Below are positions 1 to 7,836 of a DNA stretch of 16,900 nucleotides, in pieces; position 1 is the first letter of the stretch; every line of letters starts with the position of its first letter. Position numbers and translations under genes: made by a program. Source of the DNA: Candidatus Iainarchaeum sp. (GTDB lineage Archaea > Iainarchaeota > Iainarchaeia > Iainarchaeales > GCA-2688035); contig JAQTNI010000031.1 in assembly GCA_028713935.1 (NCBI GenBank), positions 1 through 16,900 on the forward strand. Direction: 5' to 3'. Under the pieces are notes generated by a model. It was not told the DNA's origin, made no database searches, and saw nothing but the letters and a program-made list of their open reading frames with translations.

Positions 1-661
1 CTTCTCCGAACTCGGTTTCCTTGAATTTTTTGTGCCCAATTCCTCGCGTCAAAAGCTCTTGCATTAAACCTTTTTTCAGCTTGCGTGCTTGCTCAATAAC
101 CTCGTCGGTTTGTTGGATAGCAGAATCAATACAAAACAAAACAGATGCAATATGTGATTGTTCAATCAACGGAGGAGTTGAAATTTTAACTGTTTTTAAT
201 AATTTCATGTTCAGGCCATTTCTTCCTTCTGCTCCTGATAAATTTCTTAACTCAGAATACCTCGATTGCAAATTATAGTAAAGATATTCTGGGACTATTT
301 TATGTTCATTTGGAATTATCCCAACTATAGATTGGTTGCAGGTTGTACTAATTCCCAAAATTCCAACTGTGCCCCTTGTTTTCCCCTGGCCATTCAATGC
401 AATAACAATTGTTTTTTTAGGCAATAATATTGTGTTCGAATTTTGCATTCCTTTTTCTGAAATAAATCCTGTCGTTCTAATAATTAACCCTTGGTGTACG
501 TCCCCTGAAGTCATCCAAGGAATATCTCCGTCCCAGTAATCTTTTACTTTGGTGCTTGGAGTGCTTCCAGTTTTTAAATTTCCAGCATCAGTTAAATCTA
601 AAATGCCCCAATCTTTTGGTATTTTTCCAGATTCAGTTTGTTTGAACTTTTGTTTGAGCAT
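1..661 (-). CDS. hsdS: Type I restriction-modification specificity subunit HsdS (N-terminal part; 3' end lies beyond the left window edge)
   Basis: Absent from the ORF track because it has no in-window stop. The reverse strand from ATG 661-659 is open for 220 codons to position 1: MLKQKFKQTESGKIPKDWGILDLTDAGNLKTGSTPSTKVKDYWDGDIPWMTSGDV...IALNGQGKTRGTVGIL...KISTPPLIEQSHIASVLFCIDSAIQQTDEVIEQARKLKKGLMQELLTRGIGH. This is a target-recognition domain followed by the conserved PPLxEQ...helical spacer typical of HsdS. The start overlaps the upstream gene by 29 nt. Confidence 0.85.
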   Translation of the reverse strand, partial: MLKQKFKQTESGKIPKDWGILDLTDAGNLKTGSTPSTKVKDYWDGDIPWMTSGDVHQGLIIRTTGFISEKGMQNSNTILLPKKTIVIALNGQGKTRGTVGILGISTTCNQSIVGIIPNEHKIVPEYLYYNLQSRYSELRNLSGAEGRNGLNMKLLKTVKISTPPLIEQSHIASVLFCIDSAIQQTDEVIEQARKLKKGLMQELLTRGIGHKKFKETEFGE

Positions 662-1634
662 ACTTTCCCTCAATATTATCAATAATTGCTTTCCCTTGAG
701 TCAAAACTTCTTCATAAGTCATAATCTTAATGTGAGATAATTGGTAGTTCCACTTTCTGATTTTTTTTACTGCTTCGGGTGTTGCATCGTTTCCAATGAT
801 AACAATTCCACGTGGTCGAAGCTCGTTAATTCCTTCTTCATCAGCTATTACTGTGCTATGTGCAGCGGCGATTGCTGATTCCATATAATTAATTAGCTGG
901 TCGACTGCTTGGATAACTTTAGCAGATACGCTTCCATCGGAATTAGTTATTTCATCAGAGATTAATTTTATTTCAACGATATCATTAGTTTTATTATACC
1001 GTTCAAGGTAAAAATCAAATTTGCTGTATGCTCCCCTTAATTTTTGCGGCTCGGCCGTGATATATTCAAGCCCAAAAAGCCAGGAATGCGCATAAAGAAA
1101 CTCTTGTAAATCAGCTTCTGATATTTTTTTTACTTTAACATTTTTAATTTTAGTATCTAATTCTTCAACATCGTTTTTAAAGTCTGGAAGTCGAGTTTTA
1201 CTCAATTCGATTATTTTTTCAGCAACTTTTTTAAGCGCATCGTCACGTTGTTGCTCTACATCCTTTTGGCGAATTTGATAATTTTCAATTAGCTGCTGTT
1301 TTTCATGGAGCTCCATCTGAAGCTGTTGAACCTCGTCTTCAATGGTTGGTTTCCAACCGACAACTTTGGCTATCTTTTTAAGGAAAAAAAGGACTGACTC
1401 TAGATGTGCCAAAGTGTGGAGATTAAAACCATAATTTTTAAACCACTTAGAACCGCCACGCCTAGGTTTTTTGGAGTCGGATAAAAAACGGACAAATTCT
1501 TCGCCAGTTTTTTTATTTTTTGCCGCAAAGATTTTTCCTGAACGATTTTTTTCAGAATAGACTGTTTCTTCTGCTAGCGATTCATAGGGCTCCCCGAGTT
1601 TCATGTCGTGCGCAGGAGTCTTTTCATCAGTCAT
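633..1634 (-). CDS. Shedu-like (DUF4263-type) PD-(D/E)xK nuclease with an unclassified basic plus coiled-coil N-terminal region, embedded in the type I R-M operon
   Basis: 333-aa ORF. The C-terminal half reads EFLYAHSWLFGLEY...KFDFYLERYNKTNDIVEIKL (ExK at 966-974)...QAVDQLINYM...RPRGIVIIGND...KWNYQLSHIKIMTYEEVL. That gives a D..ExK..Q arrangement plus the terminal hhhhG..N..h.hhTY(D/E)xhL signature I associate with DUF4263/SduA. It overlaps the hsdM stop by 8 nt and the hsdS start by 29 nt. Confidence 0.6.
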   Translation of the reverse strand: MTDEKTPAHDMKLGEPYESLAEETVYSEKNRSGKIFAAKNKKTGEEFVRFLSDSKKPRRGGSKWFKNYGFNLHTLAHLESVLFFLKKIAKVVGWKPTIEDEVQQLQMELHEKQQLIENYQIRQKDVEQQRDDALKKVAEKIIELSKTRLPDFKNDVEELDTKIKNVKVKKISEADLQEFLYAHSWLFGLEYITAEPQKLRGAYSKFDFYLERYNKTNDIVEIKLISDEITNSDGSVSAKVIQAVDQLINYMESAIAAAHSTVIADEEGINELRPRGIVIIGNDATPEAVKKIRKWNYQLSHIKIMTYEEVLTQGKAIIDNIEGKYAQTKVQTN

Positions 1635-3318
1635 AATACCCTAACTCCTTTAAGTATTTTTCCAGTTCTTTTTCAGTTTCGTTTCTTTTTAGTTCATTTG
1701 ATCTTAGTTTTAAGTATGCTTCCTTCACATTGATTTTTTCTTCCTGTTCTGTAATGTCAACGTAGCGCGTGACATTTAGATTGTAATCGTTTTCTCCAAT
1801 TTCTTTGAGTGTTGCAACTTTTGCGTATTTTTCAATGTCTTTGAATTCGTCAAAAGCATTCCAAATTTTTTCGAGGTCTGAATCTCTCAAAAAGTTCTGA
1901 GCTTTGCCCTCTTCGAAATCGTTGGCTGCATAAATGAACAAGATTTTGCCTTTGCGCTTGGCTTCCTTTGCACGATTAATAATCAAAATGCAACCTGGTG
2001 AGGGGGTATTGTAGAAAAGGTTTGCTGGCAATGAAATTACTGCTTCAATAAAATCTTTTTCCAAGAATTTTTGTCTAATTGTGCCTTCTTGCCCTCCACG
2101 GAACAACACCCCATTATCAAGTACAATTCCGAGTTGGCCATTATCTTTTAGTGTTGCAAACATGTGTTGAATCCAAGCCCAATCCGCAGTTTTTTGTGGA
2201 GGCAAGCCAAAGGAAAAGCGGCCATATGGGTCTCCTTTGACTAGTTCATCTCTGCCCCATTCATTCTGATTCCACATTGGGTTGGCGATTACTCGATCAA
2301 AGAGCATTAGTTGTCTGTCTTCAAGCAATTTTGGCGTCAGTAATGTGTCGCCTTTTTCTATTCTGGCGTCAAGTACGCCGTGCAATAACAGGTTCATTTT
2401 GCAGATTGCCCAAGTATTAAGGTTTTTTTCTTGGCCATAAAGTGAAATGTTCTGCGGGTTTTTCTTGTGCTCTCGTAAATACCGCACTATTTCAATCAGC
2501 ATTCCGGCGCTGCCCAGGCATGGGTCACAAGCTCGCATTCCCTCTTCCGGTTTGAGCAAGTGAGCAATTAATTGCACCACCTTTTGGGGGGTGTAGAATT
2601 CTCCGCCTTTTTTCCCTGCATCATCAGCAAATTGTTTAATCAAATATTCGTAAGCCCGGCCAAGCAAGTCTGGTTCGGAAAGGTCGGAGTTTCGCAGGCG
2701 ATACGCGCTGAAGTGTAAAATAAGTTTTGATAAAACGCGGTCTGGCAGGCGGTCTTTGTTGTTGAAATCAGTAACTCCTAATACCCCTTCAAGTAAGGGG
2801 TTTTGTTCTTCCAGTGCTTCGTTAGCTTTGTTTATTGCTGCACCAATGTCGCTGGTTGTTTTGCGCAGCTCTTCCCAGCGTGCGCGCGGCGGAACAAAAA
2901 ATTGGTGTTCATCTGGGTCTTCCCAGGCAGCTTTTTTGTTGCCCATTTCTTTTTCGATTTTTTCAGCTTCTTCTTCAAACACATCATTTAAGCGTTTGAG
3001 AAAAAGCATTCCAAAAATGTAATTTTTATAATCTGAAGAATCAATGCTACCGCGCAAAATGTCTGCGGCTTTCCAGAGGTGAGTTTCAAGCTCTTGTTGG
3101 GTTAATTTGGAAGTTGCTTTTTCTTTCGGGATAAATAGGTTTTGACCGCCAACTTTTTGAAGCTCGACGATACCCTCTTCTTTGAGTTCTTGCAAGTACT
3201 TTTCTGCAGTATTCCAAGAAATTCCTATTTTTTTGGCAATCTCTTCAGGGGTTATTGGTTTTTCATGTTTTTTGATTAAATCCAAAATAGCTGCCTTTCT
3301 AATATCTGCCTTTGCCAT
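1627..3318 (-). CDS. hsdM: Type I R-M N6-adenine DNA methyltransferase HsdM with an extra N-terminal winged-HTH domain
   Basis: The track ORF begins at TTG 3327; the first ATG is at 3318 (MAKADIRK...). It has the HsdM N-terminal helix LWKAADILRGSIDSSDYKNYIFGMLFLKRLND and AdoMet motif I RACDPCLGSAGML. Catalytic motif IV appears as NPMW (VIANPMWNQ, 2272-2283). The first ~75 aa, ILDLIKKHEKPITPEEIAKKIGISWNTAEKYLQELKEEGIVE, look like a wHTH. Confidence 0.9.
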   Translation of the reverse strand: MAKADIRKAAILDLIKKHEKPITPEEIAKKIGISWNTAEKYLQELKEEGIVELQKVGGQNLFIPKEKATSKLTQQELETHLWKAADILRGSIDSSDYKNYIFGMLFLKRLNDVFEEEAEKIEKEMGNKKAAWEDPDEHQFFVPPRARWEELRKTTSDIGAAINKANEALEEQNPLLEGVLGVTDFNNKDRLPDRVLSKLILHFSAYRLRNSDLSEPDLLGRAYEYLIKQFADDAGKKGGEFYTPQKVVQLIAHLLKPEEGMRACDPCLGSAGMLIEIVRYLREHKKNPQNISLYGQEKNLNTWAICKMNLLLHGVLDARIEKGDTLLTPKLLEDRQLMLFDRVIANPMWNQNEWGRDELVKGDPYGRFSFGLPPQKTADWAWIQHMFATLKDNGQLGIVLDNGVLFRGGQEGTIRQKFLEKDFIEAVISLPANLFYNTPSPGCILIINRAKEAKRKGKILFIYAANDFEEGKAQNFLRDSDLEKIWNAFDEFKDIEKYAKVATLKEIGENDYNLNVTRYVDITEQEEKINVKEAYLKLRSNELKRNETEKELEKYLKELGYYD

Positions 3319-3351
3319 AAGAATCAATAAACATATTATGGAGCGTCATAG

Positions 3352-3472: not shown

Positions 3473-3508
3473 ATGCGGCTGAGTGAAGTAGTTATATACA
3501 GAGAATGT

Positions 3509-4021
3509 ATGGATGAGCGGGTTTTGAGGTTTCGGGAGTTATTCCAAGGGTTAGTGCCGAATTTTGGTTTGTTGCATGCAAAGGCGTGCGTTGCTTTGTT
3601 GTCTGGGGGGATTAAGACTGCAAAAGAATTGTCTCAAGAGACTTTGATTTCTCATAACAAGATTTATTCTGTTTTAAAGGATTTGGCGCGTGAAAAAATT
3701 GTTTTTTGCACTAATGCTGACCCAGTGACTTTTTACATTAAGGATTTTCCAAAGATTTATGAGAAGCTTGTGAATAGGAAGATTTGTTTTTTGCAGAAGC
3801 TTCCGGAAGAATTGGACAAAATGCTCAGCAATGAAAACGAGGCCCTGGAAGAGAAAGAGTATTTGATAAAAGTTTCTGAAAAACAAACACGGTTGTTTGA
3901 TAATAAAAACAAGGTTTTGGTCAAAGAACCCTTGGAAGTAAAGCAAGTGTTAAAGCAATTGAATATTTATATTGAAAAACTCGAACCAAAAAAAGAATAC
4001 ACATACGCGATTTATCATTAG
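3509..4021 (+). CDS. TrmB-like winged-HTH transcriptional regulator (short form: HTH plus coiled coil, no effector domain)
   Basis: FGLLHAKACVALLSGGIKTAKELSQETLISHNKIYSVLKDLAREKIVF matches the TrmB/archaeal wHTH pattern (LGL..EakvY..Ll..g..ta.ela...gi.r..vY.vL..L...G.v). The track ORF starts at 3473; I prefer ATG 3509 because of the TATA position. Either start is possible. Confidence 0.55.
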   Translation: MDERVLRFRELFQGLVPNFGLLHAKACVALLSGGIKTAKELSQETLISHNKIYSVLKDLAREKIVFCTNADPVTFYIKDFPKIYEKLVNRKICFLQKLPEELDKMLSNENEALEEKEYLIKVSEKQTRLFDNKNKVLVKEPLEVKQVLKQLNIYIEKLEPKKEYTYAIYH

Positions 4022-4036
4022 CTCCAATAACAAAGG

Positions 4037-4048
4037 CTTATTAAAAAA
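4037..4048 (+). promoter_or_regulatory. Candidate TATA box for the 264-aa gene
   Basis: CTTATTAAAAAA is centred ~26 nt upstream of ATG 4069, which is leaderless-type spacing. Confidence 0.4.
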
Positions 4049-4068
4049 TCGCGACTAATTAAAATAGA

Positions 4069-4863
4069 ATGTACTTGCAAATTCCAAAAAAGTATACAGT
4101 CAATAAAACTACAATGAATTTGGACTTCTATTACTTGGCGTTAGTAAAAAAGAAGTTCAAAATCCCTACTTTGAGGCCAGATACTTCCAAGATTTCCCAC
4201 TCGAATAAGCTTTATTTCGGAGAATACTATGATGCATTGAGAAAACGCCTCGAAATATTTTGTTTTCAAGAAAGGACAGCAATGGAATTGAATGCACTTC
4301 CAGCAAATAATGATAGTCTATTTCTACTTAGGGTTTTCATTTTTGCTTACATAGTTAATACTTGCGCAATATTGGATAATGTTTGTTGGTGTTTAAACTA
4401 TTTTTATGATCTTAAATGTGACAAATACGACATTGGGATGAGGTTCTCAAATAAAAAAGAGAAAGAATTCTTAAAAAAATTAAATAGAAAGAATGCCAAT
4501 CTCGCACAAAAATTAGATGGAAAAGATATTCAAGAATGGATTGATTGGTTTGAGGAATATCGAGATATAATTCAACACAGATCTATGATTCATGTAATGC
4601 CAGTTCAAGAAGCTGGCAAGCAAATAGCTATAAAAATACCTTCAGATCCAACTCTCGCTGCAGGGGTGCCCGTTAGCAAAGGGGGTAAACTACTTTCGTA
4701 TGAAGAGAATTGGGATAGAATCTACAAAGAGAAGGGGAATCCCTTTATTGAGATCGAAAAATTCTATTGCAATACAACAGAGAAAATAACCAGCATAATT
4801 TCAGCCCTAATGGAAGAAATTTCGGATGGAAAAACTTACTCAGACAGCATCCCAATTGTATAA
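4069..4863 (+). CDS. Hypothetical protein with an HEPN-like Rx4H motif (candidate RNase/toxin)
   Basis: 264 aa. It has a hydrophobic helix FIFAYIVNTCAILDNVCWCLNYFYDL, then a helical segment, then EWIDWFEEYRDIIQHRS with R-x4-H at 4561-4578. This spacing and order are typical of 4-helix HEPN families of the Abi/Cthe_2314/MAE_18760 type. I did not recognise any other domain. Confidence 0.4.
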   Translation: MYLQIPKKYTVNKTTMNLDFYYLALVKKKFKIPTLRPDTSKISHSNKLYFGEYYDALRKRLEIFCFQERTAMELNALPANNDSLFLLRVFIFAYIVNTCAILDNVCWCLNYFYDLKCDKYDIGMRFSNKKEKEFLKKLNRKNANLAQKLDGKDIQEWIDWFEEYRDIIQHRSMIHVMPVQEAGKQIAIKIPSDPTLAAGVPVSKGGKLLSYEENWDRIYKEKGNPFIEIEKFYCNTTEKITSIISALMEEISDGKTYSDSIPIV

Positions 4864-4877
4864 GCTAGAAACAGCAA

Positions 4878-4887
4878 CATATATTAA
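4878..4887 (+). promoter_or_regulatory. Candidate TATA box for the small RHH gene
   Basis: CATATATTAA is centred ~30 nt upstream of ATG 4913. Confidence 0.4.
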
Positions 4888-4912
4888 CACCTATAGTCAT
4901 TATGTAAAGCGT

Positions 4913-5041
4913 ATGCCGTATAGAAGTGGTGTTACTACTATTCAGTTGAGCCCGGATACGAGGGATAAGCTCAAGGATTTGGGTAAGAAAGGCGAGACTT
5001 ACGAGGAAATTATTCTTAGGCTTGTTAAAGCGTATAGGTAG
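4913..5041 (+). CDS. Small ribbon-helix-helix antitoxin-like protein (archaeal putative-antitoxin / VapB-like type)
   Basis: 42 aa: MPYRSGVTTIQLSPDTRDKLKDLGKKGETYEEIILRLVKAYR. The pattern TIxLsxdtxxxLxxLgkkGEtYeevIxRLl matches the short archaeal RHH antitoxin family usually paired with PIN toxins. The track ORF starts at 4826 and overlaps the upstream gene; ATG 4913 has its own TATA. Confidence 0.5.
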   Translation: MPYRSGVTTIQLSPDTRDKLKDLGKKGETYEEIILRLVKAYR

Positions 5042-5094
5042 GCTTTTTGTGTTAAAAGGTTTTCTGCCCAATTTTTTGAATAGGTTTTTAGTCT

Positions 5095-5850
5095 ATGGAT
5101 TGGGTTCTTGCCATTGATAAAATCAAAATGGGACTTAGCAGGAAGCATTTGGTTACTATTTTTGGCTCCTGCGAAGTTGATTACGTTGGCAGAGCCACTA
5201 GCAAGCTTTCCAAGGGTAAAAGACTTGTCTTAATCAAGGGGGATAATTCTATTAGCATTCACCAAAATAGGCTAGTCAGGCCCACAAATTACATGATGAA
5301 CACAAGCATAACAATAGAATCGACAAAACAGGGGGCTGTTTTAACTGCAAAGCGGCTTAATCCGAGAGAAATTATTACTGTAATGTTTGACAAAATTGAT
5401 GATGTTCAATCATATGAAATGGAAATCAGCGACGACCTAAGGCTAAGCGGTTCTGAAAGAGATTTGAATGACATTTTAATGGAAGACTTGTCTATGATAG
5501 AACCAGGATTAAAGCCAATTAACCAGCAGGAGCATTTCAGAAAAGGAATAGCGGACATTATTGCAGAAGACAAACACGGCCACTTGGTGGTTATAGAGCT
5601 AAAGCGTAGGCAAGCTGACTATGCGAGCGTAACCCAATTGCAAAGGTATATGCAAGAAGTTCAATCAATCAAAAACTGCAAAGCAAGAGGTATACTATTG
5701 GCTCCAAGCATAAGAAAAAATGCCTTAGAATTATTAGAAAAAAATGGTTTGGAATTCGCAAAAATAGATTTTGAATTAAAGCCCTCAAGCAAAGAAAAAG
5801 CGCACATCAAAGGGTTACAGAAGAAGCAGCAAACCTTGGACAAATTCTAG
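5095..5850 (+). CDS. nucS: Endonuclease NucS / EndoMS (mismatch-specific PD-(D/E)xK endonuclease), full length
   Basis: The N-terminal domain reads CEVDYVGRATSKLSKGKRLVLIKGDNSISIHQNRLVRP. The C-terminal nuclease reads GIADIIAEDKHGHLVVIELKRRQADYASVTQLQRY. The C-terminal tail GLQKKQQTLDKF (QQTLDKF at 5827-5847) resembles the PCNA-interacting tail of archaeal NucS. Confidence 0.9.
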   Translation: MDWVLAIDKIKMGLSRKHLVTIFGSCEVDYVGRATSKLSKGKRLVLIKGDNSISIHQNRLVRPTNYMMNTSITIESTKQGAVLTAKRLNPREIITVMFDKIDDVQSYEMEISDDLRLSGSERDLNDILMEDLSMIEPGLKPINQQEHFRKGIADIIAEDKHGHLVVIELKRRQADYASVTQLQRYMQEVQSIKNCKARGILLAPSIRKNALELLEKNGLEFAKIDFELKPSSKEKAHIKGLQKKQQTLDKF

Positions 5851-5953: not shown

Positions 5954-6568
5954 ATGATTAAGGGGGATTCTTCTTTTGCAATTCACCAGAACAGGCTTTT
6001 GAGGCCTGCTAATTACATGATGAATGCATCTGTTTCAAATGAAATCGAGGGAAACACTCTTGTGATTACTGCGCGCAAGGCAAAGCCGAGGGAAATAATA
6101 AAGGCTGTTTTTTATTGCATTGATGACGTAAGGGCATATGAAATGGACTCAGTTTCCGACATAAGACTTTTTGGCTCTGAAAAAGAGTTAAGCGATGAGT
6201 TGATGCAGGACCTTGGCTTTCTTGAAAAAGGCTTAAAACCCCTGAACCAGGAAGAAGTGCTGCGCAAAGGCCTTGTTGATATTCTCGCAGAGGATTCAAA
6301 AGGCAGGCTTGTTGTAATTGAACTGAAACGCAGGCAGGCAGATTTTAATGCTGTGCAGCAATTGAAGCGTTACATGGACCAGGTCAAAAATCTCAAGGGG
6401 ATAGAAACAAGGGGGATTTTGATTGCCCCGGATATAAGGAAAAACGCGCATGAGCTTCTTGAAAAATACGGGCTTGAATTTTTCCACCTTGATTTTGAAA
6501 TAGGCAATCCCAAAGCAAAAATAAAGGGACTGCAGAAAAAACAGCAGACAATTGACAAATTTTGTTAA
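5954..6568 (+). CDS. Second NucS/EndoMS paralog, 5'-truncated relative to the family (possible pseudogene or N-terminally shortened isoform)
   Basis: About 60% aa identity by eye to the upstream NucS. Catalytic residues are retained (VDILAEDSKGRLVVIELKRRQADFNAVQQLKRY) along with the tail GLQKKQQTIDKFC. In-frame homology continues upstream of ATG 5954 to about 5882 (YYFKCYVEYWGRAASKLPKGKRLL), but that stretch back to the in-frame stop at 5777-5779 contains no ATG/GTG/TTG. Confidence 0.75.
   Translation: MIKGDSSFAIHQNRLLRPANYMMNASVSNEIEGNTLVITARKAKPREIIKAVFYCIDDVRAYEMDSVSDIRLFGSEKELSDELMQDLGFLEKGLKPLNQEEVLRKGLVDILAEDSKGRLVVIELKRRQADFNAVQQLKRYMDQVKNLKGIETRGILIAPDIRKNAHELLEKYGLEFFHLDFEIGNPKAKIKGLQKKQQTIDKFC
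6518..6562 (+). repeat. Left copy of a direct repeat: the nucS-2 3' end encoding KIKGLQKKQQTIDKF
   Basis: It shares an exact 18-mer CAGAAAAAACAGCAGACA (6533-6550) and flanking similarity with 8532-8579. Confidence 0.6.
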
Positions 6569-6579
6569 GTTGCTGATTC

Positions 6580-7836
6580 TTACCTTTTTTTGAGCAGTAG
6601 TTTGCCTATTTTTTTCTCAAGCTCTTTCAAATAAAAATCCGGGGCTGTTTGTTCTTTTCTGGCTGAGAGAACAATATCCATGGCAGTCTGCGGATCTTTT
6701 TTTGCAATTTTTAATATAATTGCAAAAACTGTGCATTGTTCATGTTTTCCGCGTTCTTCTATATTTAACGCATTTATTAGAATGGGCAATATTTTTTCTT
6801 CAGAATAAGAGCAGAGTGCATCAACTGATTGTGACTCTTTGTTGAAAACTTCATCTCCATAATTGGTTATTGCTTGAAGAGACAGCTTGATTTTTTCTTG
6901 TTCGATTTGGCTAAAAACAGAAAGAAGTTCTGGAAAATTTGCCTGTTTAATTGGCCGTAATTCCTTTTTCAAAAACAACACAATCCATTCATTAGACAAG
7001 TTTGTAAAAGAATGCCAAAAGCCAAAACCATTAGGGCGCAATACAGGAATAGGCGGGCTATGAGATGAAAATATTGCGGTATTTAATTTTCTTTTCTCAA
7101 CAGAATCAGAATAGGAAAACTTGACACAATTTTTTATATGGCTGTAACCGTTTCTTCCAGGGGCAACTCCGCCAAGAATCGTCACCCACGCTTTCAATGC
7201 TTCAGGATGAGAATTAATTGAATCAAATTCTTTTACTCCTGTGTTGGCTCCGGAAGTTGTGCCGCGCGGTGGGAGCAAAAGGATTCTTTCAACTGTGGTT
7301 TGGCCTTTTTCATCAGTCATTAAAATGAAGCTTTTTTTCCTTCTAACTACAGCCATTTTTTTGTCAAAAAATCTTTCCCTAATTTCTTTTTGCAATAAGC
7401 CGCTATGCAAAATCTCGTCAAAATTGAAAACTCTAGTATTCCATAAGAAATCGAAATGGGCGCGGTATGCAGAAGCAGTTTCCTTGCTTTTTATAACAAA
7501 AACAAAAATTGGCTTAAGAAACCACAAGAATATTGCTACCCTGTCCCCGTATATTAGGGTAGTTGCAGGCCCTGCGTATTCTGGCGGAATCGGCTTGAAT
7601 TCAGACAATGCGCTTTTTAGGAAACCCCTGCCTTCTACATATAATTGCCTGGCTGTGATGCCTTTCTTTTCCCTTTCCTTCAAATACCATTGGGTAAACT
7701 CTGGATCGATTTCCATTGCCCGGTCTGTTGCTCCCCATCCAACAAATGGTTTGCCTACCTGAATCAAATCAGTAAATGCTTTTTTGAAAGCATTTTTTCC
7801 TCTGAAAACTATGATTTCGGGAGTTAACTGGGCCAT
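6580..7836 (-). CDS. Hypothetical 418-aa protein; N-terminal ~135 aa resemble the effector (C-terminal) domain of TrmB-family regulators without any HTH
   Basis: This is a long ORF with no plausible competing frame. The N-terminus reads PEIIVFRGKNAFKKAFTDLIQ...YLKEREKKGITARQLYVEG...TTLIYGDRVAIFLWFLKPIFVFVIKSKETASAYRAHFDFLWN. That follows the pattern of TrmB-like regulator C-terminal domains (..iYgdkvai...p.aI.I.n..ia.....F..lW). I did not recognise the remaining ~280 aa. Confidence 0.55.
   Translation of the reverse strand: MAQLTPEIIVFRGKNAFKKAFTDLIQVGKPFVGWGATDRAMEIDPEFTQWYLKEREKKGITARQLYVEGRGFLKSALSEFKPIPPEYAGPATTLIYGDRVAIFLWFLKPIFVFVIKSKETASAYRAHFDFLWNTRVFNFDEILHSGLLQKEIRERFFDKKMAVVRRKKSFILMTDEKGQTTVERILLLPPRGTTSGANTGVKEFDSINSHPEALKAWVTILGGVAPGRNGYSHIKNCVKFSYSDSVEKRKLNTAIFSSHSPPIPVLRPNGFGFWHSFTNLSNEWIVLFLKKELRPIKQANFPELLSVFSQIEQEKIKLSLQAITNYGDEVFNKESQSVDALCSYSEEKILPILINALNIEERGKHEQCTVFAIILKIAKKDPQTAMDIVLSARKEQTAPDFYLKELEKKIGKLLLKKR

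What the first reader, a model, noticed from the sequence alone, without database searches (positions are those of the whole stretch)
4069..5041. HEPN-like Rx4H protein followed by a 42-aa RHH antitoxin-like gene: candidate non-canonical toxin-antitoxin or Abi module
Seen in sequence: the 264-aa protein has a helix ILDNVCWCLNYFYDL and, about 60 residues later, EWIDWFEEYRDIIQHRS (R-x4-H, 4561-4578). This order is typical of minimal HEPN RNase domains. The last ~90 residues are an unrecognised extension. Fifty nt downstream, with its own TATA (4878-4887), is a 42-aa RHH (TIQLSPDTRDKLKDLGKKGETYEEIILRLV). It belongs to the short archaeal antitoxin type that normally partners PIN/VapC toxins. Established knowledge: HEPN toxins are usually neutralised by MNT nucleotidyltransferases. 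An RHH-HEPN pairing in toxin-then-antitoxin order is not a standard described pair. The pair sits between an R-M operon and other nucleases, which is a defence-island context.
Basis: partly seen in the sequence, partly recalled or inferred. Interest (0 to 1): 0.65.

Follow-up and report, generated by a model that had tools for sequence, protein, structure and literature searches.

The report
Stand-alone archaeal HEPN gene beside RHH
The 264-residue protein is probably a divergent archaeal RNase of a known toxin-like superfamily (HEPN), but the small gene after it is an independently conserved DNA-binding protein with its own promoter, so the two are neighbours by insertion and not a toxin-antitoxin pair.

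Summary
Both ORFs and the R-x4-H motif are at the stated coordinates. The HEPN guess holds up. In 56 remote homologs (about 16% mean column identity) R165 and H170 are the only invariant residues. D166 is at least 90% conserved in the 27-sequence alignment. D103 is at least 90% conserved and lies in predicted helix-2. In a confident AlphaFold model the motif ends helix-3. The only recurrent Pfam match is Cthe_2314-like HEPN (PF18730). It is below threshold for this protein (17.5 vs 27.1 bits) and is hit by 13 of 56 relatives. Foldseek gave no significant match. The 42-aa gene is DUF7557, a minimal RHH-like protein.

The toxin-antitoxin reading is not supported. None of 77 DUF7557 loci holds a relative of the 264-aa protein, and none of 24 loci of that family holds DUF7557. 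A TrmB-like gene and DUF7557 are adjacent in three genomes. Elsewhere they are separated by varying cargo, including an AbiL-like ATPase and CARF-like and IetA-like genes. The HEPN gene is the cargo in this window. Relatives of DUF7557 that do sit in TA-like pairs are 62-80 aa; the 42-aa form lacks their C-terminal tail.

Verdict: a new member of a known kind, of modest interest.

The parts
4069..4863 (+). 264-aa protein, a divergent archaeal relative of the Cthe_2314-like HEPN family (predicted metal-independent RNase). It is the cargo gene of a variable slot.
   Evidence: ORF. 55 remote homologs by full HMMER. PF18730 hit at E 0.0042, 17.5 bits, below the gathering score of 27.1. 13 of 56 relatives hit PF18730, best E 2e-7. 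AlphaFold model with pLDDT 89.1 and pTM 0.87. The ATG at 4069 is preferred over the database call at TTG/L23 (242 aa), because homologs align from about residue 4-16 and Y22 is at least 90% conserved.
4561..4578 (+). Codons for R165-D-I-I-Q-H170, the predicted catalytic R-x4-H motif (family consensus fRDxxxHR).
   Evidence: R165 and H170 are invariant in 27 and in 56 sequences. D166 and R171 are at least 90% conserved in the 27-sequence alignment, and R171 also in the 56-sequence one. The motif lies at the end of model helix 152-169 and the start of the following loop, which is the position described for HEPN in PMC3710099.
4369..4413 (+). Codons for ILDNVCWCLNYFYDL (residues 101-115) in predicted helix-2, with conserved D103 and W107.
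   Evidence: D103 is at least 90% conserved in both alignments and W107 in the 27-sequence one. Both lie in model helix 81-112. A conserved acidic residue in helix-2 is a described HEPN feature.
4032..4048 (+). A-rich TATA-like element (AAAGGCTTATTAAAAAA) 21-37 nt upstream of the 4069 ATG, a possible own promoter for the HEPN-like gene.
   Evidence: Read from the sequence only. Inference, not tested by conservation.
4866..4912 (+). Conserved promoter block of the DUF7557 gene. Consensus: aaaacg.a.ac.TTTATTAA.cACCTAyAG.cgTTATATAG...tATG.
   Evidence: DNA alignment of 24 Iainarchaeia loci. Conservation starts at about 4866, right after the HEPN stop codon, and is independent of the upstream gene.
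4913..5041 (+). 42-aa DUF7557 protein, a minimal RHH-like (strand-helix-helix) protein and a conserved flank gene rather than a dedicated partner.
   Evidence: Pfam PF24434 at E 4.8e-12. 73 homologs, up to 90% identical. 15 invariant columns. Third-codon-position variation shows selection on the protein. Best PDB profile match is the RHH antitoxin MazE7, E 0.056.
3473..4021 (+). TrmB-like wHTH regulator gene, the conserved left flank of the variable slot.
   Evidence: Pfam TrmB at E 1.7e-6. It lies upstream of DUF7557 on the same strand in 8 other distinct loci, adjacent in 3 of them.
5095..5850 (+). NucS/EndoMS endonuclease gene, 53 nt downstream of DUF7557. It is a conserved right neighbour in 3 loci.
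   Evidence: Pfam NucS_N and NucS_C. 74% identical orthologs directly follow DUF7557 in L012 and L030.
633..3327 (-). Neighbouring defence operon: a wHTH-HsdM-type N6-adenine methylase (1627-3327) overlapping a Shedu-type SduA_C nuclease (633-1634).
   Evidence: Pfam N6_Mtase at 1.4e-105. SduA_C at 1.5e-13. PADLOC SduA at 3.7e-17 and MTase_I at 4e-161.

Best explanation
The window comes from an Iainarchaeia (Diapherotrites, DPANN) genome. Gene 4069-4863 encodes a stand-alone, divergent member of the Cthe_2314-like branch of the HEPN superfamily. By analogy with characterised HEPN RNases, it is inferred to be a metal-independent endoribonuclease. Its active site would use R165 and H170 (motif RDxxxHR at the end of helix-3), assisted by D103 in helix-2, and probably assembles across a dimer. 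It most likely acts as a single-gene abortive-infection or stress RNase. It sits as horizontally acquired cargo in a variable slot between a conserved TrmB-like regulator gene and a conserved DUF7557-NucS unit, next to a methylase plus Shedu-type nuclease operon. The 42-aa gene 4913-5041 is a separate transcription unit. It encodes a minimal RHH-like DNA-binding protein (DUF7557) with its own DNA-conserved promoter, probably a small transcription factor that may autoregulate. It evidently descends from the archaeal COG1753/VapB-type RHH antitoxins but has lost the toxin-binding tail. The adjacency of the two genes results from insertion of the HEPN cassette just upstream of the DUF7557 promoter and does not reflect a functional pairing. 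Shown: the conservation patterns, the predicted secondary structure, the synteny and the lack of co-occurrence. Inferred: RNase activity, a defence role, dimerisation, and DNA binding by DUF7557.
For: HEPN identity:
- R165 and H170 are the only invariant columns in 27 and in 56 homologs with 16-22% mean column identity. D166 and R171 are at least 90% conserved in the 27-sequence alignment. D103 is at least 90% conserved.
- In the AlphaFold model (pLDDT 89.1, pTM 0.87), helix 81-112 carries D103 and W107, a helical insert spans 129-149, and helix 152-169 ends at the motif.
- PF18730 is the only Pfam family hit repeatedly, by 13 of 56 relatives with best E 2e-7, and by the window protein at E 0.0042 over residues 88-171.

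Stand-alone cargo:
- An hmmsearch with the family profile finds no relative in any of 77 DUF7557 loci.
- No DUF7557, even at E<=1, is found in 24 loci of the HEPN-like family.
- The TrmB-like gene lies upstream of DUF7557 in 8 other distinct loci. It is adjacent in L015, L011 and L067. It is separated by different cargo in L014 (AbiLi-like ATPase, 5e-32), L030 (CARF3/Csa3-like 3e-51 and IetA-like AAA 1.6e-22), L012, L013 and L029.
- GC content is lowest (0.30-0.33) over the HEPN gene.
- Family members elsewhere sit beside defence genes: Dam methylase and DndB; a PF05168 HEPN and a C5 methylase; Pycsar-like PycTM and AGS_C. One sits in a prophage tail and lysis module.

DUF7557 independence:
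- The promoter block and the gene are conserved at DNA level in 24 loci with unrelated upstream genes.
- Downstream neighbours are heterogeneous: thermosome x3, NucS x3, TBP x2, Fic x2.
- At least 5 MAGs carry two copies.
- The 62-80-aa relatives have a C-terminal tail and overlapping RelE-like or PIN genes downstream, and the 42-aa form has neither. This fits the description of COG1753 in PMC2701414.
Against: The window protein scores below Pfam's gathering threshold for PF18730 (17.5 vs 27.1 bits). Foldseek against PDB and BFVD gave no significant match. The best HEPN hit, 7bxo_F, has E 2.5, probability 0.38 and TMt 0.54. PDB sequence and profile searches found no HEPN. PADLOC has no model that matches. 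No activity data exist for any family member, and all named homologs are 'hypothetical protein'. How a potentially toxic RNase is kept silent without a partner is unexplained. The context sample for the HEPN-like family is small, since many contigs are short. In L012 the gene in the same slot position also has an RNx3H motif, so a loose HEPN-DUF7557 link cannot be fully excluded.
Confidence: 0.65

Rival explanations
1. The 264-aa HEPN RNase is a toxin, and the downstream 42-aa RHH is its cognate antitoxin, in a non-canonical toxin-then-antitoxin type II module or a two-gene Abi system.
For: The two genes are on the same strand, 49 nt apart, with no T-run terminator between them. The DUF7557 fold and sequence resemble RHH antitoxins: PF02697 at E 0.023 and MazE7 at E 0.056. 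Longer relatives are genuine TA-like antitoxins. In L012 the gene just upstream of DUF7557 is an unrelated 403-aa protein that also has a C-terminal RNAVGH motif. The closest homolog, P0075, has a small canonical RHH gene next to it, although convergent and beside a methylase.
Against: 0 of 77 DUF7557 loci carry a relative of the 264-aa protein, and 0 of 24 loci of that family carry DUF7557. The window's DUF7557 is 83-90% identical to copies that sit next to unrelated genes. It has its own conserved promoter, which starts right after the HEPN stop codon. It is only the RHH core and has no toxin-binding tail. The slot between the TrmB-like gene and DUF7557 is empty in three genomes. The 403-aa protein of L012 has no detectable similarity to the family or to any HEPN model.
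Confidence: 0.07
2. The 264-aa protein is not a nuclease. It would be an all-helical protein of another fold, or a non-catalytic HEPN-like binding domain, in which the conserved R, H, D and W serve ligand binding or structure. The PF18730 similarity would be a weak convergent motif match.
For: The Pfam score is below threshold. There is no significant Foldseek or PDB match, and the top structural hits are generic long helical bundles. An R-x4-H alone arises in 10% of shuffles. Non-catalytic HEPN domains are known (PMC3710099).
Against: R and H are invariant across 56 sequences at about 16% column identity, with a polar residue after the R and a conserved acidic residue on the neighbouring helix. 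This is the pattern of catalytic HEPN domains, and non-catalytic ones usually lose it. The motif position in the model matches the HEPN description. 13 of 56 relatives reach PF18730 independently and no other family recurs.
Confidence: 0.15
3. The HEPN-like protein works together with another neighbour. It could be an RNA-targeting accessory of the adjacent methylase plus Shedu-type nuclease operon, or it could be under transcriptional control of the upstream TrmB-like regulator, as a multi-gene defence unit.
For: HEPN domains are often embedded in or next to R-M systems (PMC3710099 abstract and Table 1). Family members elsewhere lie beside DNA methylases. The TrmB-like gene ends 47 nt upstream on the same strand.
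Against: The TrmB-like gene is conserved with DUF7557 whether or not the HEPN gene is present. The methylase-nuclease operon is on the opposite strand and was not found next to other family members. The neighbours of family members are heterogeneous.
Confidence: 0.1

Closest known systems
Cthe_2314-like HEPN family (Pfam PF18730; Anantharaman et al. 2013, PMC3710099)
   Same: It is the only recurrent profile match, for the window protein at residues 88-171 and for 13 of 56 relatives. It shares a conserved R-x4-H with a polar residue after the R and a helix-2 acidic residue. It occurs as a stand-alone gene, and the 2013 survey lists 'None detected' for conserved gene-neighbourhood partners, as found here.
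   Different: The window protein scores below the family's gathering threshold. The family was described as bacterial, whereas this is a DPANN archaeal branch. It has an N-terminal beta-hairpin plus helix, and a beta-rich insert (about residues 177-228) between the motif and the last helix. Many relatives carry extra N- or C-terminal domains of 110-190 aa.
Single-protein HEPN abortive-infection genes (AbiD/AbiF, AbiJ, AbiU2, AbiV)
   Same: They are stand-alone HEPN proteins of about 200-400 aa found in defence islands and prophages, with no dedicated antitoxin gene. This is the likely mode of action by analogy.
   Different: There is no detectable sequence match to these families in Pfam or PADLOC. 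No phage-resistance phenotype is known for this family.
HEPN-MNT type II/VII toxin-antitoxin modules
   Same: A putative HEPN RNase toxin with an R-x4-H motif. The weak Foldseek resemblance is to the HEPN toxin 7bxo_F.
   Different: No MNT nucleotidyltransferase gene lies nearby. The protein is twice the size of MNT-associated HEPNs. No conserved two-gene module is found.
COG1753 / VapB-type archaeal RHH antitoxins (PF02697; Makarova et al. 2009, PMC2701414)
   Same: The DUF7557 RHH core resembles them weakly (E 0.023). Relatives of 62-80 aa in Woesearchaeota, Methanosarcinales and Haloarcula precede overlapping RelE-like or PIN genes, as described for COG1753.
   Different: The 42-aa Iainarchaeia form lacks the C-terminal tail. 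It has no overlapping downstream toxin gene, has heterogeneous neighbours, has a DNA-conserved promoter, and occurs in two copies per genome. It behaves as a solo regulator gene.
Defence islands and variable integration hotspots flanked by core genes
   Same: The slot between the TrmB-like gene and DUF7557 is empty in some genomes. In others it holds different cargo, including defence-type genes (AbiL-like ATPase, CARF/Csa3-like, IetA-like AAA ATPase, and the HEPN gene here).
   Different: No integrase, tRNA or repeat boundaries were found. The sample is only 9 loci, and some cargo (L029, L013) is not obviously defensive.

Membership tests
HEPN superfamily (catalytic type) | Conserved R-x4-6-H motif | tested here: met
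   R165 and H170 are invariant in 27 sequences and in 56 sequences.
HEPN superfamily (catalytic type) | Polar residue (N, D or H) immediately after the conserved R | tested here: met
   D166 is at least 90% conserved in the 27-sequence alignment. Criterion from PMC3710099.
HEPN superfamily (catalytic type) | [quoted passage not shown] | tested here: met
   In the AlphaFold model (pLDDT 89), helix 152-169 ends at R165-Q169, and H170 is the first non-helical residue. This rests on a predicted structure, not a solved one.
HEPN superfamily (catalytic type) | Conserved acidic residue in helix-2, near the motif | tested here: met
   D103 is at least 90% conserved and lies in model helix 81-112.
HEPN superfamily (catalytic type) | Four-helix up-and-down bundle that superposes on solved HEPN domains | tested here: inconclusive
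HEPN superfamily (catalytic type) | Metal-independent endoRNase activity | not testable with these tools
   Needs biochemistry.
Pfam PF18730 HEPN_Cthe2314 | Score at or above the gathering threshold (27.1 bits) | tested here: not met
   The window protein scores 17.5 bits, E 0.0042. 13 of 56 relatives match at E<=0.1, best 2e-7. It is therefore filed as a divergent relative, not a formal Pfam member.
Type II toxin-antitoxin module (264-aa plus 42-aa) | The two genes co-occur as a conserved pair across genomes | tested here: not met
   0 of 77 DUF7557 loci hold a relative of the 264-aa protein. 0 of 24 loci of the 264-aa family hold DUF7557.
Type II toxin-antitoxin module (264-aa plus 42-aa) | A bicistronic operon with tight coupling | tested here: not met
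   There is a 49-nt gap. DUF7557 has its own promoter block, conserved in 24 loci, which starts right after the HEPN stop codon. Transcripts were not measured.
Type II toxin-antitoxin module (264-aa plus 42-aa) | The antitoxin carries a toxin-neutralising region in addition to its DNA-binding domain | tested here: not met
   The 42 aa cover only the strand-helix-helix core. Relatives next to RelE-like or PIN genes are 62-80 aa, with a tail of about 30 aa.
Type II toxin-antitoxin module (264-aa plus 42-aa) | Toxicity of one product, neutralised by the other | not testable with these tools
   Needs expression experiments.
HEPN-MNT module | An adjacent minimal nucleotidyltransferase gene | tested here: not met
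   No NTP_transf_2 or MNT domain was found in any neighbouring ORF of the window.
Pfam PF24434 DUF7557 (42-aa protein) | Score at or above the gathering threshold (25 bits) | tested here: met
   45.6 bits, E 4.8e-12.
Ribbon-helix-helix (MetJ/Arc) superfamily (42-aa protein) | N-terminal beta-strand followed by two helices, with homology to known RHH proteins | tested here: inconclusive
   Only weak matches: PF02697 at E 0.023 and MazE7 (6a6x) at E 0.056 over the strand and the start of helix 1. JGI names two homologs 'predicted CopG family antitoxin'.

The most novel reading that the evidence does not exclude
DUF7557 would be an antitoxin-derived solo RHH regulator that has become a fixed gene of Iainarchaeia, with two copies per genome and a DNA-conserved promoter-operator. 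The site just upstream of its promoter would be a recurrent landing pad for defence cargo. The RHH might then set the expression of whatever lands there, including this previously unannotated archaeal branch of HEPN RNases. That would be a loose, transcription-level 'guardian' relationship and not a classical TA pair.
Probability: 0.12. Interest if true: 0.55.

Novelty: new member of a known kind. Interest (0 to 1): 0.3.

Why it matters
The analysis assigns a probable function, a HEPN-type RNase with named catalytic residues, to an unannotated and almost purely metagenomic protein family. It extends the Cthe_2314-like HEPN branch, described as bacterial and without context, to DPANN archaea, whose defence repertoire is poorly known. 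It also removes a false lead: the attractive 'HEPN plus RHH' toxin-antitoxin pairing is an accident of insertion. The by-products may be more useful than the original finding. One is a small RHH gene with a remarkably conserved promoter. The other is a variable, partly defence-loaded slot between a TrmB-like gene and DUF7557 in Iainarchaeia. All of this remains incremental, and no new kind of system is shown.

Tried and rejected
- A k-mer-prefiltered homolog search for the 264-aa protein found only the protein itself. The same search with the family profile added just 3 proteins. The full HMMER search was needed.
- A single-sequence AlphaFold model was useless, with pLDDT 35.
- Foldseek against PDB and BFVD gave only noise-level helical-bundle hits.
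- PDB sequence and profile searches for the family gave only chance hits such as TCTP and importin.
- NCBIfam, PHROGs and PADLOC had nothing for either protein.
- No relative of the 264-aa protein was found in GenBank phages or PLSDB plasmids. IMG/VR gave a single distant locus.
- I tested whether the 403-aa gene upstream of DUF7557 in L012, which has an RNAVGH motif, belongs to the same family or to any HEPN model. It does not.
- I looked for repeats, target-site duplications or tRNAs flanking the inserted gene. Only chance-level repeats and no tRNA turned up. The bacterial-type promoter and terminator scan was uninformative for an archaeon.
- An apparent inverted repeat flanking the DUF7557 gene (ACCTATA/TATAGGT) is not conserved in other loci.
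- Source names for homologs are all 'hypothetical protein'.
- No paper mentions DUF7557 or PF18730.
Full report
**1. What is there**

The window has a same-strand run of genes:
- a TrmB-like wHTH regulator, 3473-4021;
- a 264-aa ORF, 4069-4863;
- a 42-aa ORF, 4913-5041;
- two tandem NucS/EndoMS genes, 5095-5850 and 5954-6568.

On the opposite strand to the left lie a wHTH-HsdM-type N6-adenine methylase (1627-3327) and, overlapping it by 8 nt, a 333-aa protein with a Shedu SduA_C nuclease domain (633-1634). Further right are housekeeping genes: an XPD-like helicase, a class I aminoacyl-tRNA synthetase, arginine decarboxylase and enolase.

- ILDNVCWCLNYFYDL is residues 101-115.
- RDIIQH is residues 165-170, at nt 4561-4578.
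- The intergenic gap is 49 nt, with ATATATTAA at about 4879-4887.

The closest relatives of the small protein, of NucS (74%) and of the TrmB-like protein (up to 59%) are all from Candidatus Iainarchaeum / Diapherotrites MAGs. The window is therefore from a DPANN archaeon of that group.

**2. Is the 264-aa protein a HEPN?**

An R-x4-H by itself is weak evidence, since it appears in 10% of shuffles of this sequence. The word-indexed search found only the protein itself. A full HMMER scan of 1.8 billion representatives found 55 remote homologs, the best at 35% identity and E 1.5e-15.

Conservation:
- In an alignment of 27, and then of 56, sequences (22% and 16% mean column identity), R165 and H170 are the only invariant columns.
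- D103 and R171 are at least 90% conserved in both alignments.
- D166, W107 and Y22 are at least 90% conserved in the 27-sequence set.
- The family motif is fRDxxxHR.

Predicted structure. With the alignment, AlphaFold gives a confident model, with pLDDT 89.1 and pTM 0.87. Its elements are:
- an N-terminal beta-hairpin and helix;
- long helices 44-75 and 81-112, the second carrying D103 and W107;
- a helical insert at 129-149;
- helix 152-169, which ends exactly at the motif, with H170 as the first loop residue;
- a beta-rich insert, followed by a long C-terminal helix at 229-251.

The reference survey of the superfamily (PMC3710099) states four things that all match. [quoted passage not shown] The residue after the R is typically N, D or H. 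A second conserved acidic residue sits in helix-2. [quoted passage not shown]

Family assignment. The only Pfam family that recurs is PF18730 (Cthe_2314-like HEPN). The window protein hits it at E 0.0042 and 17.5 bits over residues 88-171, below the gathering score of 27.1. 13 of 56 relatives hit it, the best at E 2e-7. By scaling from the window protein's score, that best hit would be about 32 bits, above the threshold. This figure is my inference, not a printed value.

Evidence against. Foldseek found no significant match in PDB or BFVD. The HEPN toxin of the Shewanella HEPN-MNT complex (7bxo_F) appears only at rank 30, with probability 0.38. PDB sequence and profile searches and PADLOC were negative.

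I conclude that the protein is very probably a catalytic HEPN domain protein and a divergent relative of the Cthe_2314-like family, but not a formal Pfam member.

Two further points. The 'unrecognised C-terminal extension' is part of the conserved family architecture, because several homologs align to residues 240-253. The ATG at 4069 is a better start than the database's TTG at L23.

**3. What is the 42-aa protein?**

It is Pfam DUF7557, at 45.6 bits and E 4.8e-12. It has 73 homologs in the word-indexed search, many 80-90% identical and mostly of 41-48 aa, and 15 invariant positions. Its pattern fits a minimal ribbon-helix-helix:
- strand: TTIQL;
- helix: TRDKLKxLG;
- turn: KKGET;
- helix: YEEIILRL.

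Homology evidence for RHH is only weak: PF02697 VapB-type at E 0.023, and the RHH antitoxin MazE7 at E 0.056. The 71-aa reading from the ATG at 4826 is an over-extension.

**4. Are the two genes a module?**

I tested this in both directions.

(a) From the DUF7557 side. A scan of one genome per GTDB species returned 77 DUF7557 loci with up to 5 kb on each side. An hmmsearch with the profile of the 264-aa family found no member in any of them. Among the 25 close (Iainarchaeia) loci the neighbours are heterogeneous. Downstream genes include thermosome x3, NucS x3, TBP x2, Fic x2 and MazF x1. Upstream genes include an ABC ATPase, a P-type ATPase, Mrr and others. None shows the overlapping arrangement typical of TA pairs.

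(b) From the HEPN-like side. In 24 loci carrying members of the 264-aa family, about 20 of them distinct, there is no DUF7557 even at E<=1. There is also no recurrent small same-strand downstream gene. The closest homolog (P0075) does have a 44-aa canonical RHH next to it, but that gene is convergent and sits in front of a C5 methylase.

**5. Why the two genes are adjacent**

A tblastn of the window proteins against all fetched loci shows the TrmB-like gene upstream of DUF7557, on the same strand, in 8 other distinct loci. The arrangement varies:

| Locus | Between the TrmB-like gene and DUF7557 |
|---|---|
| L015, L011, L067 | Nothing: the genes are adjacent, 54-300 nt apart |
| L014 | AbiLi-like ABC ATPase (PADLOC 5e-32) plus a 202-aa partner |
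| L030 | CARF3/Csa3-like protein (3e-51), IetA-like AAA ATPase (1.6e-22) and two unknowns |
| L012 | 176-aa protein, Zn-ribbon protein and a 403-aa unknown |
| L013 | A methyltransferase |
| L029 | Membrane and secreted proteins |
| This window | The HEPN-like gene |

A DNA alignment of 24 loci shows that conservation begins at about 4866, three bases after the HEPN stop codon. It runs through a promoter block (aaaacg.a.ac.TTTATTAA.cACCTAyAG.cgTTATATAG...tATG) and then the gene. In the gene it has the 2-of-3 codon periodicity expected for a protein under purifying selection.

The HEPN gene also has the lowest GC of the region, 0.30-0.33. The simplest reading is that a HEPN cassette of about 0.85 kb (4022-4865) landed in a variable slot just upstream of the DUF7557 promoter.

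**6. Relation of DUF7557 to antitoxins**

More distant relatives of 62-80 aa, from Woesearchaeota, Methanosarcinales and Haloarcula, carry a C-terminal extension of about 30 aa. They are followed by overlapping ORFs:
- 108-113-aa ORFs with a RelE/ParE-like KELKYKxFRFYFI motif;
- a canonical RelE-like 90-aa protein (L056);
- a PIN protein (L070).

This matches the published description of the archaeal COG1753 RHH antitoxins, which pair with PIN and, in methanogens, with RelE (PMC2701414). The 42-aa Iainarchaeia form has only the DNA-binding core and no partner. It looks like a solo derivative, and without a tail it is unlikely to neutralise any toxin in the usual type II manner. The same paper reports RHH-HEPN fusions (paREP1), so RHH-HEPN combinations are not entirely unknown.

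**7. Mechanism proposed**

Shown: the conservation of R165, H170 and D103 across the 56-sequence alignment (D166 in the 27-sequence set only), the predicted helix topology, the cargo-in-a-slot synteny, and the defence-type neighbours here and for other family members. Those other neighbours include Dam methylase and DndB in L088, Pycsar-like PycTM and AGS_C in L103, a PF05168 HEPN and a methylase in L006, and a prophage tail and lysis module in L087.

Inferred: the protein is a metal-independent endoRNase whose R/H site probably forms across a dimer. It would act as a stand-alone abortive-infection or stress effector like AbiD/F, AbiJ, AbiU2 and AbiV. The N-terminal and beta-insert regions could gate its activity.

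Also inferred: DUF7557 is a small dimeric DNA-binding regulator, possibly acting on the conserved ACCTAyAG...TTATATAG element of its own promoter.

How the RNase is held in check is unknown.

**8. Novelty and score**

The Cthe_2314-like HEPN family was listed in 2013 as bacterial, catalytic and without detectable context. No paper mentions PF18730 or DUF7557. This is a new and divergent archaeal member of a known kind, and the proposed non-canonical TA module is not supported.

Interest is modest, at 0.3. The more interesting residue is the conserved DUF7557 promoter-gene unit and the variable, partly defence-loaded slot upstream of it.

Noticed in passing
window 633-3327 (-): The 'R-M operon' is a wHTH-HsdM-type methylase (1627-3327) that overlaps by 8 nt a 333-aa protein with a Shedu SduA_C/DUF4263 nuclease domain (633-1634). 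No HsdS or HsdR was seen. This is an unusual pairing of a methylase with a Shedu-type nuclease.
   Followed up: partly
window 4866-5041, and L010-L036: The DUF7557 gene and about 47 nt of promoter are conserved at DNA level across 24 Iainarchaeia loci that have unrelated flanks. At least 5 MAGs carry two copies. Copies sit in front of thermosome, TBP, NucS and Fic genes.
   Followed up: partly
window 3473-5041 versus L011, L012, L013, L014, L015, L029, L030, L067: The interval between the TrmB-like gene and DUF7557 is a variable slot. It is empty in 3 genomes. Elsewhere it holds an AbiL-like ATPase pair, CARF/Csa3-like plus IetA-like AAA genes, a methyltransferase, or unknown genes.
   Followed up: partly
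L045, L046, L049, L055, L058, L062, L072, L076 (about 5000-5550 in each): DUF7557-like proteins of 62-80 aa are followed by overlapping 108-113-aa ORFs that have no Pfam hit but carry a RelE/ParE-like KELKYKxFRFYFI motif. This is probably an unannotated RelE-like toxin family in Woesearchaeota and Methanosarcinales.
   Followed up: no
L012 3738-4949 (the same gene is at L003 2738-3949): A 403-aa protein directly upstream of DUF7557-NucS has a C-terminal YRNAVGHE (RNx3H) motif. It has no hit in Pfam, PADLOC or PDB and no similarity to the 264-aa family. It could be another cryptic HEPN.
   Followed up: partly
window 5095-5850 and 5954-6568: There are two tandem NucS/EndoMS paralogs. The second lacks about 45 N-terminal residues of the PH-like domain.
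   Followed up: no
L087 2445-3818: A 457-aa distant member of the HEPN-like family lies inside a prophage tail and lysis module, between tail genes and upstream of a holin and an amidase. This suggests a phage-carried moron.
   Followed up: no
L103 2395-5639: A 212-aa family member sits immediately downstream of Pycsar-like genes (PycTM and AGS_C) and a 226-aa unknown, all on the same strand.
   Followed up: no
L097 1720-1938 and L098 1776-2003: Two family loci share a related convergent 72-75-aa ORF (..DIPRIKHGKxQTxDTLISEEALLLAKxLRNE..) just downstream. It was not seen in the other loci.
   Followed up: no
window 6580-7836 (-): A 418-aa ORF has no Pfam, NCBIfam or PADLOC hit. Its N-terminal approximately 130 residues weakly resemble ORFs near DUF7557-like genes in L078 and L045 (tblastn 1e-8 and 4e-6).
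   Followed up: no
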